Shown here one piece after another: positions 3,233 through 6,896 of a DNA stretch of 7,002 nt (positions are counted from its first letter, which is position 1; each line of letters starts with the position of its first letter). Source of the stretch: a virus (lineage: Duplodnaviria > Heunggongvirae > Uroviricota > Caudoviricetes). The stretch lies in IMG/VR virus record IMGVR_UViG_3300029745_000141, one strand, 5' to 3'. The translations under genes were made by a program, and so were the position numbers. The notes beneath the pieces are model-generated. The model was not told the DNA's origin and did not search any database. It saw only the letters and a program-made list of their open reading frames with translations.

Positions 3233-3435
3233 AACCTCACTCCCAGCGGACGACGGCGACGCCGGGTTGTCCCCAGTACCGACTCCGCATCATTGATCGC
3301 CCGGTTAAGCTCATCCAGAGAAGCCGCCGTATATTCAATTCTGCGACCATCTTTCTGGACAGACACCACCCGTTTACCGGTTAATAAATCAAGGCGCGCC
3401 TGACGCAGCGCCTGCAGTTCAGCGACTGTAACCAT
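3229..3435 (-). CDS. W: Head completion / head-tail joining protein (lambda gpW-like), 68 aa
   Basis: 68-aa ORF, the same length as lambda gpW, with a conserved core (LLTGKRVVSVQKDGRRIEYTAASL versus lambda [24 protein letters not shown] as recalled). It lies between the large terminase and portal genes. Confidence 0.85.
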   Translation of the reverse strand: MVTVAELQALRQARLDLLTGKRVVSVQKDGRRIEYTAASLDELNRAINDAESVLGTTRRRRRPLGVRL

Positions 3436-5347
3436 TCACTCCTCCGGACAGCTTCGCTGCCAGTTCTTTAAGGGTTGGCCGGGTCGTCTCTTCTTCCCGG
3501 GATTTTGCCAGTACAGCCAGATCAAGCTGCCAGCGTTGCACGGACACACGTAATGCCGCGTAGGCATACACCAGGCAGTCCAGCGCTTCGTTACGCCGCT
3601 TTTTGTTATCCCACAGCAGACGCATCTTTCCTTTTTCCCACTTCTCCACAAGCTCTTCCGCGACCAGTTGCTGCGCCTCTGTCTGCGAAAAAATCTCCGG
3701 ATCATCAGGAAAACGGATGGCATACGACGTGGCTTCATCCGCAGGCGTGGGATCGGCTTTCATACGGGCATAGAGAATTTCTTTTGCGGTGTCCGTCCCC
3801 ACTTCGCACAGATACACGCCCCGCTGATTGCGGGTTTTTGGCATGGTGATCACCGGCTTGCCATAAACAGATGCACCTTTTACCGGCAGCACCCGGAAAA
3901 CACCGTGTTTTTTTGACCTCTGATAGACAATTTCGCCATCGATCCCTCCGGTGTCCCAGCAGACACGGGAAATGGTCATTTCGGTTCCGTCTGCATGGCG
4001 GTATTTTTTGTTGATCGCCACATCCACACGTAACAGCGTCTCTTCCTCATCGGGACGCCCCATAATGATGATTTTATCCACCAGAAAGGCTTCCTCTCCC
4101 GGAGCCCATCCCCAGACATACATCTCAAAACGGTTTCGCTGCGAGTCAATGCCCGCCGTCAGATAAACCACCCGGGAAGGCACCGCAGCCGTGTAACGCA
4201 CAACCTTATCCATCAGCACCTGGTGATCGAGTTTTTCGCCCACGGCCTCTTCCCAGGTCTCGCCCAGCGTGGTGTTCACAAAGGTTTTCAGGCCGTTGGG
4301 ATCTTTCAGTGCATCCAGCCAGTCATAGACAATCTGTACCCAGGTGGTGAACGGACTGTACGCCGTCCAGATATGGAATGTGATGGAGCGCGGCGGCGGA
4401 ATTTCATTACCCGCAGCGCTGAAAAACGTCAGGCCGTCACGGGTCCACATGCCCGTGTTTTCACAGATCCACCGCCCGTTGCTCTGGTCAAGATCAGACT
4501 GATGGATCACGCAGCCATGATGTTCACAGAGGTAGAAAACACTTTCTGGACTGTCCTTCTCCCATTTAAGGCCAAAAGGCGTGGACTCATCGCCAAATTT
4601 CAGATACTGCGCCTCCCCACAGTGTGGGCAGGGCACATAAAAACGCATGAAATGCGCCGACTCGTTGGCCGCTTTTTCGATCTGGCAGGAGCCTTTTATT
4701 TTAGGCGTCGAGCCGCGAATGGATTTTGGCCATACCGAGCCCTCAATACGCTTATCCCCCAGCAGGGTTGGCGAGCCCTCTTTTTCGACATCCGGCTCGA
4801 ACGAGGAAAGTTCGTCATAGCAGACCACGTCCACGGATTTTTCACGGTAGTTTTTGGCGGCAGCACCACCCAGGCACCAGAACCCCACACGGGACGTGAA
4901 TCTTTTTAATGTCAGTGTGTTATCCCGGTGCTTACGCCCCAGCCAGGGGGAAAGAATTTTCAGACAGGGAACATCCCGTAATGTTGACTCCACATGAGAC
5001 TTCATAAAATCTTCAGCGGCAGAATCCGTAGGCTGAAACAGAAGACTGTTACGGTTTTTATGCTCAATAAAGTAACCAATAACGCCCATCAGCATTTTGG
5101 TGTAACCGACTCGAGCTGATTTTATAAGATTAATTGTGCGGATCCGGTCATTACCCATGCAGTTCATTATTGCCACCTGAAAGGGCAACGTCTTCCACCG
5201 CCCAGCAAGATAAGAGGACTCCGGGGGCAAATAATAATTTTGATCGGCCCATTCAACGGTGGTTACAGGCAGTGGGCGTAAAAGCCCACGAAGTGCCACT
5301 CCACAAACAACAGCAAAGTTATTTAGCTGCTTCTCTGAGGTATTCAT
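3419..5347 (-). CDS. A: Terminase large subunit (lambda gpA-like), 642 aa, with ATPase and nuclease domains
   Basis: 642-aa ORF (lambda gpA is 641 aa) with near-colinear similarity to gpA as recalled ([20 protein letters not shown], a Walker-A-like KSARVGYTK motif at about 5096..5122, [92 protein letters not shown]). Its 5' end overlaps the Nu1 3' end by 29 nt, a long overlap as in lambda. Confidence 0.95.
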
Positions 5348-5867
5348 CCAGCATCTCCGGTAACTTCTCTGCCGTTGATGCGCATCGGTTTGCCGCCTTT
5401 GCTATATCGGTTTTCAGGAAATCAAGCATAGCGGGCGTCAGTGCCGGAAACTGTCTCTGCATGGACAATGGAATGGAGTCAAGAATGGCAGAGATCTCCT
5501 GTGCCAGTCTTCCCAGAGCAAAAAGGCAAAACCCTGTATCAATGACCTGCCCACTGTCGCGGGCATTTTTCAGTTCCTGTGCATCTGCCTGTGCCTTCGT
5601 CAGTCGGTAACGTTCGTAATCAATGGTGCCGGGCTGAAGGTCTGATTCGCTGGCAGCCCTCAAATCCTCGACCTCTTTACGGAGTTTTTCATTTTCAATA
5701 TCAGCTTCGCGCTGAGCATACCATTCGATCGCCTTCGCAGAATCAAAGATGACCTCAACACCTTTTCCTCCACCAGATATCTGAGGGAGCCCCTGAGTTT
5801 GCCAGCGATCAATAGTGCGTATATCGACATTAAAGATTTCAGCAAGCTTCTTTTTATTAACATTCAT
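5319..5867 (-). CDS. nu1: Terminase small subunit (lambda Nu1-like), 182 aa, cosB-binding winged HTH at the N-terminus
   Basis: 182-aa ORF. The N-terminus [28 protein letters not shown] matches lambda Nu1 (MEVNKKQLADIFGASIRTIQNWQEQGMP as recalled), with further conserved blocks ([35 protein letters not shown]). AAGGA Shine-Dalgarno 8 nt upstream of the ATG. It sits immediately next to the cos site. Confidence 0.9.
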
Positions 5868-6043
5868 TCAGCAATTCCTTATCAAAAATCAGTTACGACA
5901 TGAAATGCCAAAAAAGACAGATTTTTCAGCGTTCTGATGTCGTTTCTTTCTTGATGATTATTTCTTTAAAAACAATAAGTTAACAACAAGAAGAACTGAC
6001 ATGCTTTTTCCCGAAAAATTTTCATAAATAGCGAAAACCCGCG
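5868..6043. promoter_or_regulatory. cosB-like terminase binding region between cosN and the nu1 start, with R-site-like elements
   Basis: Position is equivalent to lambda cosB. The roughly 45 bp next to cosN are nearly identical to the lambda left end as I recall it (minus strand: CTCGCGGGTTTTCGCTATTTATGAAAATTTTTCGG). R-site-like elements: gtcgtttctttc at 5939..5950 (compare lambda R-site core GTCGTTTCCTTTC), a tcagttcttcttg-type element at about 5984..5999, and a partial TGTCGTAAC copy at about 5891..5899. The region is AT-rich, consistent with an IHF bend site. Exact R and I1 boundaries are not determined. Confidence 0.6.
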
Positions 6044-6055
6044 AGGTCGCCGCCC
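6044..6055. other. cosN, the 12-bp cohesive-end nicking site (intact, i.e. prophage or concatemer form)
   Basis: The sequence aggtcgccgccc at 6044..6055 is the exact reverse complement of the lambda cohesive end GGGCGGCGACCT. It is flanked by lambda-like left-end and right-end sequence on either side. Confidence 0.8.
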
Positions 6056-6078
6056 CGTAACGGCCCGGATCGCCGGAA

Positions 6079-6085
6079 AGGACCC
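6079..6085. other. cosQ-like element (packaging termination signal) on the right-end side of cosN
   Basis: The minus-strand reading of 6056..6086 is CGGGTCCTTTCCGGCGATCCGGGCCGTTACG, very close to the lambda right terminus as I recall it (CGGGTCCTTTCCGGTGATCCGACAGGTTACG). The heptamer GGGTCCT lies 24 to 30 bp from the nick position, which is where I recall lambda cosQ. Both the coordinates and the heptamer are from memory. Confidence 0.5.
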
Positions 6086-6422
6086 GAGAAAATGATAATG
6101 ATTATCAGTTGCAACAAAATCCAGTTTCTTCCACCATCGCACCGGACGAGCGACCATGAGGGGACAACGCCACGCTCCGTTAACGCGGTAAACCCCGGTG
6201 TGTATCGTTTTTGATTATCCCCGCACACTCGCGCAGAGGAGTCTCCCGGTAGGGCTGCGGTCTCTGTTCATGTGGGAATACGGCGACGATACTGCGCAAA
6301 GACATGCTTCAGAAATACATAAGTAAACTAAAATATTGTATCTCTGTGGCTAATTACGTAAATTGGTGGCTTGGCCCCTTTAGCCACCGGCAAATCTTCA
6401 GCGGATTATCCTTGGCCGGTTT

Positions 6423-6896
6423 TTATCTGAGGCATTGCTCACGAATGTATAGCTGTGCCCCTTCCAGCTGCTTCTGCATTGTCATCAACCGTTCTCTGAG
6501 GATGAAATAATCCCGTTCAGCGGCGTCTGCCAGTCTGGGGCCGGTTGCATTATCCACGCCGGAGGTGGTGGGGGCTTCACGCACGGAGCCTGGACAGGTG
6601 GCGTTGATCCGCAGGCGCTTACGACCAGCGGCAACGTCAGCGCGAAGAGTTTCATTTTCAGCTCTCGCATCGGCTAATTCCCTCGAGTATTTTGCATCGA
6701 GCGCAGCAACATCGCGCTGGCGCACCTGCATATCAGTAATGGTTGCGTTCGCCAGCTTCAGTTCACTGGCTTTGTTATCGCGCTGCGCTTTGTAGGTAAT
6801 CGCGTTATCACGGTAATGGTCTGTTGCCATCCACAGCGCTCCACAGGCCACCAGCAGAATAACGATAAACGCGGAAAGCATTCGGTTTATGTTCAC
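6423..6896 (-). CDS. Rz: Rz inner-membrane spanin (i-spanin) subunit; GTG start at 6896 (157 aa) or ATG at 6881 (152 aa)
   Basis: Strong similarity to lambda Rz as recalled ([74 protein letters not shown]). Single N-terminal transmembrane segment followed by a periplasmic coiled-coil-like domain. The ORF track start is a GTG whose G-T-G-A overlaps the stop of the upstream ORF. The ATG at 6881 gives an N-terminus with no positive residue before the transmembrane segment, so GTG is slightly favoured. Confidence 0.9.
6485..6670 (-). CDS. Rz1: Rz1 outer-membrane lipoprotein spanin (o-spanin), embedded entirely in the +1 frame of Rz, 61 aa
   Basis: [20 protein letters not shown] has a signal peptide and lipobox (VSAC) followed by the proline-rich mature peptide [32 protein letters not shown]. 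This closely matches lambda Rz1 ([31 protein letters not shown] as recalled). The ORF lies wholly inside Rz in another frame, the classic embedded spanin architecture. Confidence 0.85.

What the first reader, a model, noticed from the sequence alone, without database searches (positions are those of the whole stretch)
6093..6107. Perfect 7-1-7 Fur-box-like palindrome about 40 bp from cosN
The sequence tgataatgattatca at 6093..6107 is a perfect 15-bp inverted repeat (7 bp, one central base, 7 bp). It matches the classical Fur operator 7-1-7 consensus TGATAATnATTATCA at all 14 specified positions. It lies in the non-coding interval between the Rz stop and cos, 38 bp from cosN and just outside cosQ. 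A 14/14 match is unlikely by chance in 7 kb, but AT-rich palindromes near cos could instead be an IHF or terminase architectural element. No convincing sigma70 -10/-35 pair overlaps it on either strand, so a regulatory target is not obvious. If real, it would suggest iron/Fur-responsive control of a small transcript, or Fur binding at the packaging site.
Basis: partly seen in the sequence, partly recalled or inferred. Interest (0 to 1): 0.5.

Follow-up and report, generated by a model that had tools for sequence, protein, structure and literature searches.

The report
Known Fur-binding site beside phage cos
The palindrome is real and is the same strong binding site for the host iron regulator Fur that sits next to the DNA-packaging site of phage lambda and of two E. 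coli K-12 cryptic prophages; Fur binding there is already published, but what it does for the phage is still unknown.

Summary
TGATAATGATTATCA at 6093-6107 is real (0 of 200 shuffles give an exact match). On the minus strand the window reads Rz, palindrome, 7 nt, cosQ, cosN, Nu1, gpA.

Lambda has the same 15-mer at 48452-48466, 6 nt left of cosQ. So do the K-12 cryptic prophages Qin and DLP12, where it is the published "nohA/nohB" Fur site: Fur-titration positive, gel-shifted by Fur, and among the strongest predicted Fur clusters in K-12.

A Fur matrix I built from 16 other K-12 sites scores the window 21.2 and 19.4 bits in two registers 6 bp apart (genuine sites score 18-26).

Of 94 distinct lambda-like cos haplotypes, 72 keep the box 3-8 nt from cosQ despite unrelated left flanks. 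Gifsy-1, Pseudomonas and Aeromonas relatives and one Escherichia lineage lack it, so it is accessory.

No promoter, terminator, RNA structure or IHF consensus consistently overlaps it.

Unexpectedly, Fur boxes also lie just left of cos in an unrelated HNH/P27-terminase family. They are absent from P22-like and Sf6-like headful phages and from P2.

Verdict: a genuine, already documented Fur site. Its link to cos looks selected, but its function is unproven.

The parts
6093..6107 (.). Perfect 7-1-7 Fur-box palindrome TGATAATGATTATCA (TGATAATCATTATCA on the phage-sense minus strand)
   Evidence: Identical to lambda 48452-48466 and to the Qin nohA Fur site.
6084..6116 (.). Extended Fur cluster footprint: two overlapping 27-bp matrix registers 6 bp apart (6090-6116 at 21.2 bits; 6084-6110 at 19.4 bits)
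   Evidence: matrix built from 16 K-12 Fur sites, nohA/nohB excluded; next-best position in the window 6.7 bits. One search shows conservation extending into the A-rich and TTT flanks and to T(-5) and G(-4).
6086..6092 (-). T-rich spacer (TTTTCTC on the minus strand) between palindrome and cosQ. Its length varies from 3 to 8 nt among relatives; the first three T are conserved.
6079..6085 (-). cosQ heptamer GGGTCCT (packaging-termination subsite)
   Evidence: Read from the sequence. Same heptamer 35-37 nt from the right chromosome end in lambda, N15, phi80, Pseudomonas F10 and Aeromonas PhAER-5. Role taken from the Feiss-lab literature.
6044..6055 (-). cosN core: 12-nt cohesive-end sequence GGGCGGCGACCT
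   Evidence: exact match to the lambda cosN 25-mer.
5868..6043 (-). cosB-equivalent region between cosN and the Nu1 start. It contains a 19-nt imperfect inverted repeat (5948-5966 / 5974-5992) and one IHF-consensus-like match (5970-5982, 1 mismatch).
   Evidence: Assigned by position and analogy with lambda cosB (inference).
5319..5867 (-). Small terminase subunit Nu1
   Evidence: Pfam Phage_Nu1, E = 1e-81
3419..5347 (-). Large terminase subunit gpA (about 65% identical to lambda gpA, 79% to Gifsy-1)
   Evidence: Pfam GpA_ATPase and GpA_nuclease; tblastn
6423..6896 (-). Rz lysis protein, the last gene before cos
   Evidence: Pfam Phage_lysis, E = 1e-48
6108..6422 (.). 315-bp stretch between Rz and the palindrome with no recognisable gene. 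It is unrelated to the sequence left of the palindrome in lambda.
   Evidence: ORFs 6092-6214 and 6304-6510 have no Pfam match. No Rfam family.

Best explanation
The palindrome is a genuine high-affinity binding site for the host iron regulator Fur. It is a cluster of two or more overlapping Fur-dimer sites in a 6-bp register, homologous to the published nohA/nohB Fur boxes of the K-12 prophages Qin and DLP12 and identical to lambda bp 48452-48466. In the phage it forms the left edge of the conserved cos block, 3-8 nt from cosQ. I propose that it is an accessory host-factor subsite of cos acting at the DNA level, not a promoter operator. Fe(2+)-Fur would sit on the last about 30 bp that the terminase motor crosses before cosQ and cosN. 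That DNA ends up 36-50 bp from the right end of the mature chromosome, the end that enters the cell first. The most likely consequences are a protein 'speed bump' or architectural aid for cos recognition at packaging termination, or capture or protection of that DNA end. Shown: the sequence, its conservation, and (in homologues, from the literature) Fur binding. Inferred: any role in cos function, and the specific mechanism.
For: Fur binding. Chen et al. 2007 list nohB (25.3 bits, among the top scores in their K-12 table) and nohA (22.3 and 12.6 bits, 6 bp apart). The nohA oligonucleotide shifted with 150 nM Fur, and both loci came from in vivo Fur titration or selection. Their coordinates convert exactly to the palindrome centres beside the cryptic cos sites. 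A ChIP-seq summit at 1634625 coincides with the Qin palindrome.

Independent matrix. The window scores 21.2 and 19.4 bits against 18-26 for genuine sites.

Selection. 72 of 94 distinct cos haplotypes, none chosen through the motif, keep the box (31 of them perfect). The left flanks are unrelated or strongly diverged, the centre base is a free C/T, and conservation ends at the borders of a roughly 27-bp Fur-type block. The box persists in a lineage whose cosQ heptamer has changed (L259, L282).

Link to cos. The window phage, phi80 and N15 have no divergently transcribed gene beside the box, so cos is the only neighbour common to all the contexts examined. Fur boxes also recur at the equivalent position in an unrelated HNH/Terminase_4/TerL family: all 40 positions scoring 16 bits or more in about 490 kb fall in the HNH-terS gap. 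There are none in 77 P22-like and 77 Sf6-like headful loci.

Not an operator. No promoter consistently overlaps it.
Against: No experiment links the box to packaging. It is missing from Gifsy-1, Pseudomonas F10, Aeromonas PhAER-5, an Azomonas prophage and one Escherichia lineage, all of which keep cosQ. HK97 itself has only a degenerate remnant, and P2-like cos phages have none. It therefore cannot be essential. The spacer to cosQ varies from 3 to 8 nt, which argues against a rigid protein-protein contact. Satellite-like elements with cosQ-cosN but no terminase gene mostly lack it. The fur gene is not mentioned in the main text of the genome-wide lambda host-factor screen. Saturation mutagenesis defined cosQ as only 7 bp (my recollection of Wieczorek and Feiss 2001; the paper is not held). 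In both positive families cos lies just upstream of terS, so a transcriptional role is not excluded.
Confidence: 0.45

Rival explanations
1. It is a classical Fur operator. Fe(2+)-Fur represses a promoter at the box, either rightward into Nu1/A (the literature files nohA and nohB as 'Fur-regulated genes') or leftward into lysogenic-conversion genes (ylcI/ynfO DUF3950, ybcV/ydfO, bor) that some relatives carry there.
For: The DLP12-type sequence has a rightward GTGACA-16-TATCAT match (10 of 12) whose -10 lies inside the right arm of the box. Most haplotypes read TATCAT at that arm. In lambda, Qin and DLP12 a DUF3950 gene starts about 150 bp to the left on the opposite strand. In both Fur-box-positive phage families cos lies directly upstream of terS. 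Cos sites without a downstream terminase gene mostly lack the box. Chen et al. chose nohA as a site combining Fur and sigma-70 model predictions.
Against: No promoter-like site overlaps the box in the window, lambda or Qin. The -35 element is not conserved across contexts. The window phage, phi80 and N15 have no divergent gene to the left. The box lies about 230 nt upstream of the Nu1 start with cosQ, cosN and cosB in between. P22-like and Sf6-like phages, which have a comparable lysis-then-terminase gene order (my own knowledge), have no box. I found no expression data showing iron or Fur control of nohA or nohD.
Confidence: 0.2
2. It is a Fur decoy. During lytic replication, hundreds of phage genome copies each carrying a very strong Fur site titrate Fur and derepress host iron uptake for the phage's benefit. 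This is the same effect that makes the cloned fragment positive in the Fur titration assay.
For: The homologous fragments were found precisely because they titrate Fur from multicopy plasmids. The site ranks among the strongest predicted in K-12.
Against: A decoy could sit anywhere, yet the box is always 3-8 nt from cosQ and lies at the equivalent place in a second family. Headful lambdoid phages of the same hosts would benefit equally but have none. Fur is abundant, several thousand molecules per cell (my own knowledge), against a few hundred phage copies.
Confidence: 0.1
3. It has no function for the phage. It is a chance AT-rich palindrome, or a relic, that travels with the cos module by linkage and happens to bind Fur.
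For: It is dispensable in several lineages. One- to three-mismatch variants, a partial deletion (L023) and a 6-bp duplication (L046) exist among prophages. No phenotype is known.
Against: The box stays perfect in 31 distinct haplotypes while the sequence immediately to its left is unrelated or strongly diverged and the spacer and the cosQ-cosN interval vary. The recombination boundary almost always falls to its left. Conservation follows Fur's own pattern: free centre base and a second site in a 6-bp register. It recurs independently in a non-homologous packaging module.
Confidence: 0.07
4. The relevant ligand is not Fur but another protein (terminase, IHF or a phage-encoded DNA binder), and the Fur match is incidental.
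For: The phi80 GenBank record labels the 55 bp that include the box 'cosQ; aka R4 region'. The Feiss-lab minimal cos inserts (lambda bp 48446-182) always include it, so a terminase contact was never excluded.
Against: No IHF consensus overlaps it. The conserved block coincides with the Fur 7-1-7 motif and its 6-bp register, not with the R-site sequence. Fur binding to the identical core is documented. The box accompanies terminases only 65% identical to each other, and also a wholly different terminase family.
Confidence: 0.05

Closest known systems
nohA (Qin) and nohB/nohD (DLP12) Fur boxes of E. coli K-12
   Same: Homologous element at the same position: palindrome, 6-7 nt, GGGTCCT, cosN, then a Nu1-type gene. 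The Qin core is identical to the window's and the DLP12 core differs only at the free centre base. Both are documented to bind or titrate Fur.
   Different: Those copies lie in defective prophages and are catalogued as host 'Fur-regulated genes'. The papers I could search do not mention that the site abuts cosQ. The window's copy is in an apparently intact phage module with a different left flank and a terminase about 65% identical to lambda's.
Lambda bp 48452-48466, immediately left of cosQ (48473-48479)
   Same: Identical 15-mer, same orientation and neighbourhood.
   Different: The spacer is 6 nt in lambda and 7 nt here. Lambda has about 2 kb of accessory genes (bor and a DUF3950 ORF, among others) between Rz and the box, whereas the window has 315 bp with no gene.
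IHF site I1 in lambda cosB (a host-factor subsite of cos)
   Same: The precedent for a host DNA-binding protein site built into cos that helps terminase but is not strictly essential. This is what I propose the box works like.
   Different: I1 lies right of cosN between R3 and R2 and acts at initiation. The box lies left of cosQ, binds a different protein, and has no demonstrated packaging role.
Classical Fur operators of iron-uptake promoters (fepA-fes, entC, fhuA, cirA, ryhB)
   Same: Same sequence family and same overlapping-site architecture, with scores in the same range.
   Different: Those overlap -35/-10 elements and repress a defined promoter. Here no promoter is consistently present.

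Membership tests
E. coli Fur box (Fur-binding site) | Match to the 7-1-7 consensus TGATAATnATTATCA (core of the 19-bp Fur box) | tested here: met
   14/14 specified positions at 6093-6107; 0 of 200 shuffles give an exact match.
E. coli Fur box (Fur-binding site) | Matrix score with flanking bases within the range of experimentally supported sites | tested here: met
   21.2 bits against leave-one-out scores of 18.1-26.2 for 15 genuine K-12 sites. Only 8 of 58,425 background positions score as high or higher, and the background loci contain seven of the training Fur sites. Next-best position in the window is 6.7 bits.
E. coli Fur box (Fur-binding site) | Overlapping additional site(s) in a 6-bp register (Fur 'cluster', more than one dimer) | tested here: met
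   A second register at 6084-6110 scores 19.4 bits. T(-5), G(-4) and the AAA/TTT flanks are conserved across 72 haplotypes. Chen 2007 reports two sites 6 bp apart at nohA.
E. coli Fur box (Fur-binding site) | Fur protein binds in vitro and in vivo | not testable with these tools
   Published for the homologues only: gel shift of the nohA oligonucleotide, FURTA and in vivo selection for nohB and nohA, and a ChIP-seq summit on the Qin palindrome. Not done for this phage's flanks.
Fur-repressed promoter (operator in the strict sense) | The box overlaps a functional promoter, and the downstream gene is regulated by iron and Fur | tested here: not met
   No promoter-like site overlaps the box in the window or in lambda/Qin; only DLP12-type sequences have one. 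I found no expression data. These are consensus scans only, so a weak or non-canonical promoter is not excluded.
Lambda cos subsite (cosQ/cosN/cosB class) | Present in all phages that use the lambda-type cosQ-cosN | tested here: not met
   Absent from Gifsy-1, F10, PhAER-5, the Azomonas prophage and the L005 lineage, all of which have GGGTCCT in place. 22 of 94 haplotypes lack it.
Lambda cos subsite (cosQ/cosN/cosB class) | Required for, or measurably contributes to, cos cleavage or packaging | not testable with these tools
   Standard minimal cos constructs (lambda bp 48446-182) include the box, so they never tested it. The key cosQ mapping papers are not held.
IHF binding site | Match to WATCAANNNNTTR | tested here: not met
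   No match with up to 1 mismatch overlaps 6080-6120. The nearest is 5970-5982, in cosB.
Intrinsic terminator or structured RNA element | Stable hairpin (plus U-run), or an Rfam family | tested here: not met
   No terminator-like site in 5800-6500. RNA fold z-score +0.8. The only Rfam hit is a sub-threshold chance match elsewhere.

The most novel reading that the evidence does not exclude
Fur is a second host factor, after IHF, that is built into the cos sites of lambdoid phages. Two unrelated packaging modules (lambda Nu1/gpA and HNH/P27-TerS/TerL) have each kept strong Fur sites on the last few dozen base pairs before the terminal cut. Fur occupancy would then tune packaging termination or the fate of the first-injected DNA end, coupling virion production or infection to the host's iron status.
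Probability: 0.25. Interest if true: 0.75.

Novelty: new member of a known kind. Interest (0 to 1): 0.45.

Why it matters
At the level of the site itself, little is new. The same sequence in lambda, Qin and DLP12 has been a textbook-strength Fur box since 1994-2007.

What is open is the function. The iron-regulation literature treats it as the operator of a 'Nu1 homologue gene', and the packaging papers I could search never mention it. Meanwhile the standard minimal cos fragments used in lambda packaging work, and as far as I know the cos fragments in common cosmid vectors (from memory), include it.

The comparative pattern found here says the site is under selection and tied to cos. It is conserved against unrelated flanks, it recurs in a second, non-homologous cos module, and it is absent from headful lambdoids.

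That turns a loose annotation into a testable question: does an abundant host metalloregulator take part in cos recognition, packaging termination or DNA-end handling? The question is answerable with existing lambda genetics (a scrambled box, delta-fur hosts, iron chelation, dilysogen packaging assays).

Tried and rejected
- **Small RNA or structured RNA.** Rfam at a permissive threshold gave only a chance snoRNA match at 5837-5888. The RNA fold is no better than shuffles. Rejected.
- **Terminator.** None found.
- **IHF site.** No consensus overlaps the box.
- **Conserved promoter.** Present only in the DLP12-type context.
- **Hidden gene between Rz and the box.** The ORFs there have no Pfam match, and the DUF3950 gene that lambda has is absent.
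- **Universal cos subsite.** Rejected by Gifsy-1, F10, PhAER-5, the Azomonas prophage and the L005 lineage.
- **Feature of all cos phages.** Rejected by P2. HK97 itself has only a degenerate copy.
- **Searches that gave little.** The cosQ-defining papers (PMC1461673, PMC47553) and the supplement of Chen 2007 are not held. I found no paper linking a Fur box to terminase or cos, and no Fur expression or ChIP data naming ylcI, ynfO or nohD.
- **tonB training site.** It was mis-located because I only had an approximate coordinate, and it scored -4.4. It slightly weakens the matrix but does not change the result.

Full report
**1. The observation**

The 15-mer TGATAATGATTATCA is at 6093-6107 and matches the Fur 7-1-7 consensus at all 14 specified positions. 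It is the only match in the window even with three mismatches allowed. No exact match appeared in 200 dinucleotide-preserving shuffles.

The window is a lambda-type late region read on the minus strand. Pfam identifies Rz (6423-6896), Nu1 (5319-5867), gpA (3419-5347), gpW and a lambda-family portal. Between Rz and Nu1, in phage sense, lie:
- 315 bp with no recognisable gene;
- the palindrome;
- a 7-nt T-rich spacer;
- cosQ, GGGTCCT (6079-6085);
- the cohesive-end 12-mer GGGCGGCGACCT (6044-6055);
- a cosB-like region.

The closest annotated phage is Escherichia phage PhiR5_1, 98% identical over this interval.

**2. It is not lineage-specific: lambda has it**

Lambda (J02459) carries TGATAATCATTATCA at 48452-48466, 6 nt left of cosQ. 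The sequence to the left of the palindrome is unrelated in lambda and in the window. The palindrome is therefore the left edge of the shared cos block. The window's gpA is only about 65% identical to lambda gpA.

**3. Fur binding is already published for this element**

The K-12 cryptic prophages carry the same arrangement:
- DLP12 has TGATAATTATTATCA at NC_000913.3 580594-580608, upstream of nohD (formerly nohB).
- Qin has TGATAATCATTATCA at 1636593-1636607, upstream of nohA, with flanks identical to lambda.

Chen et al. 2007 (PMC2189734) list Fur site clusters at 579824 (nohB, 25.3 bits, among the highest in their K-12 table) and at 1634624 and 1634630 (nohA, 22.3 and 12.6 bits). The nohA oligonucleotide was shifted by 150 nM Fur. 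The loci had first been found by the Fur titration assay (Stojiljkovic 1994) and by in vivo selection (Vassinova and Kozyrev 2000). After the known offsets between genome versions (+777 and +1976), those coordinates fall exactly on the two palindrome centres.

Myers et al. 2013 report a ChIP-seq summit at 1634625. It is one of ten peaks at known Fur sites that showed no FNR-dependent expression. The serum was anti-FNR, so this shows occupancy, not proof of Fur.

None of the papers I could search notes that the site abuts cosQ.

**4. Independent matrix test**

I built a palindromic 27-column matrix from 16 other K-12 Fur sites, leaving out nohA and nohB. The window scores 21.2 bits at 6090-6116 and 19.4 bits at 6084-6110. 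Leave-one-out scores of genuine sites are 18-26, and the next-best position in the 7-kb window is 6.7.

**5. Conservation**

I collected cos regions without using the motif, in two ways: through TerL and through a cosQ-spacer-cosN pattern. I added named phages. This gave 94 distinct haplotypes.
- 72 have the box with 0-3 mismatches (31 are perfect), 3-8 nt left of cosQ.
- These occur in more than ten left-flank contexts that are unrelated or strongly diverged.
- Columns 1-15 carry 1.0-2.0 bits, except the centre base, which is C or T equally.
- Conservation continues into TTT on the right and A-rich bases plus T(-5) and G(-4) on the left, then stops. That is the footprint expected of overlapping Fur dimers.
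- phi80 has a perfect copy, which its record labels 'cosQ; aka R4 region'. N15 has a three-mismatch copy.

The box is absent from Gifsy-1, Pseudomonas F10, Aeromonas PhAER-5, an Azomonas prophage and one Escherichia lineage, all of which keep GGGTCCT at the same distance from the end. It is therefore an accessory element, not a core cos subsite.

**6. What it is not**
- No promoter-like site overlaps it in the window or in lambda/Qin. Only DLP12-type sequences give GTGACA-16-TATCAT.
- No terminator, Rfam family or RNA structure.
- No IHF consensus.
- Lambda, Qin and DLP12 have a DUF3950 gene diverging about 150 bp to the left. The window phage, phi80 and N15 do not. Cos is therefore the only neighbour common to all the contexts I examined.

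**7. An unexpected extension**

Nineteen were the lambda-type element. Most of the rest lay in AT-rich contigs, where chance matches are expected.

In contigs of about 50% GC, however, the box again sat beside packaging genes of other types:
- HNH, box, G-rich block, Terminase_4 TerS, TerL;
- HNH, boxes, Terminase_2 TerS, TerL;
- a gpA lineage whose cosQ heptamer differs.

A TerL-anchored census of the HNH/P27 family (temperate phages of Klebsiella, Pantoea, Salmonella and Serratia) found that all 40 positions scoring 16 bits or more, in about 490 kb, lie in the HNH-terS gap. That gap is left of the putative cos. Thirty-one of 73 loci have such a hit, often with two boxes.

Controls:

| TerL family | Packaging type | Loci with a hit of 16 bits or more |
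|---|---|---|
| gpA (window type) | cos | 63 of 76, nearly all at the cos-left position |
| HNH / P27 TerS | cos (putative) | 30 of 79 distinct loci |
| P22-like | headful | 0 of 77 |
| Sf6-like | headful | 0 of 77 |
| P2-like | cos | 1 stray hit in 79, none at cos |

HK97 itself has only a degenerate remnant.

The element therefore belongs to lambdoid cos modules in which cos lies directly upstream of terS. This is five families sampled without phylogenetic correction, so it is a pattern, not a proof.

**8. Mechanism**

Shown or documented: a strong Fur-binding cluster, under purifying selection, positioned at the cosQ edge of cos.

Inferred: because no promoter is conserved and the only constant partner is cos, I favour a DNA-level role as an accessory host-factor subsite, analogous in kind to the IHF site I1. 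Terminase translocates toward the downstream cos from the left. Fur would therefore be the last obstacle before cosQ. The same DNA ends up 36-50 bp from the right chromosome end, which by my own knowledge is packaged last and injected first.

Arguments against an essential role:
- several lineages lack the box;
- the spacer length varies;
- satellite-like cos sites mostly lack it;
- fur is not mentioned in the main text of the lambda host-factor screen.

Confidence that this is a Fur site is about 0.9. Confidence in a cos-linked, non-operator role is about 0.45. Confidence in the specific 'speed bump' or end-handling mechanism is about 0.25. The rivals are a transcriptional operator (0.2), a Fur decoy (0.1), a neutral hitchhiker (0.07) and another ligand (0.05).

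**9. Verdict**

The Fur-box reading is right, but it is already known for the homologous copies. The 'small transcript' and 'IHF' ideas are not supported. The window's site is a new member of a known kind. The remaining interest lies in its unexplained, apparently selected association with cos.

Noticed in passing
L106 4162-4199(+) and 4720-4757(-); also L136, L138, L174: These elements carry two cosQ-cosN units in inverted orientation about 520 bp apart. The first is abutted by a terminator-like hairpin (GGCCGGAGAAATCCGGC followed by T8) instead of a Fur box, lies downstream of capsid-like genes, and has no gpA-type terminase nearby. They may be satellites or rearranged prophages.
   Followed up: partly
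L322-L401 (for example L332, about -583 and about -535 from the TerL start); L239 12633; L258 13655; L266 177: Temperate phages of Klebsiella, Pantoea, Salmonella and Serratia with an HNH / Terminase_4 / TerL module carry one or two Fur boxes (consensus AAATGAGAATGAATATCATTT) between the HNH gene and a G-rich block (GGGGAGGGGCGGGT) just left of cos.
   Followed up: yes
L259 5829 and L282 784: This gpA-type lineage has a lambda-like cosN (CCACG|GGGCGGCG) but GGTACTCCCG where cosQ GGGTCCT would be. It still has a perfect Fur box about 32 nt from the nick. In L259 the small-terminase position is occupied by a DUF1441 protein.
   Followed up: partly
L094 (Gifsy-1), about 20 nt left of cosQ at locus position 870: In place of the Fur box, Gifsy-1 has a different 6-5-6 inverted repeat, TTGTTAtattgTAACAA. 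Its meaning is unknown.
   Followed up: no
L001 2213-2404, minus strand (lambda 48112-48303): J02459 leaves a 64-aa ORF unannotated. It is a DUF3950 protein (Pfam E = 2e-20), homologous to K-12 ylcI/ynfO, and starts 149 bp left of the palindrome on the opposite strand.
   Followed up: partly
window 6073-6085 (minus strand GGGTCCTTTCCGG) and the same columns in 72 haplotypes: Conservation extends six bases beyond the 7-bp cosQ: TTCCGG is almost invariant, although my search pattern did not require it. The functional cosQ-side element may be longer than 7 bp, or these bases may serve another purpose.
   Followed up: no
window 5948-5966 / 5974-5992 and 5970-5982: There is a 19-nt imperfect inverted repeat in the cosB-like region, with an IHF-consensus-like match (1 mismatch) overlapping its right arm. 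This resembles lambda's R3-I1-R2 layout.
   Followed up: no
L021 1415-1441 and about eight similar loci: A second, weaker Fur-like box (AATTGAGAATATTTTTCATTAATTAAT, 16.2 bits) lies about 300 nt left of cos in one sub-lineage.
   Followed up: no
NC_000913 (old coordinate 1634625, nohA): The 'FNR' ChIP-seq peak in Myers et al. 2013 sits on the Qin palindrome. The sequence has TGAT-N7-ATCA spacing rather than the FNR spacing, so the ten 'FNR peaks at Fur sites' may reflect Fur rather than FNR. This is my inference.
   Followed up: no
L063 1426-1971: One locus with a window-type gpA has a different small ORF (MDKLK...) in the Nu1 position and no recognisable cosN within 2.5 kb upstream.
   Followed up: no
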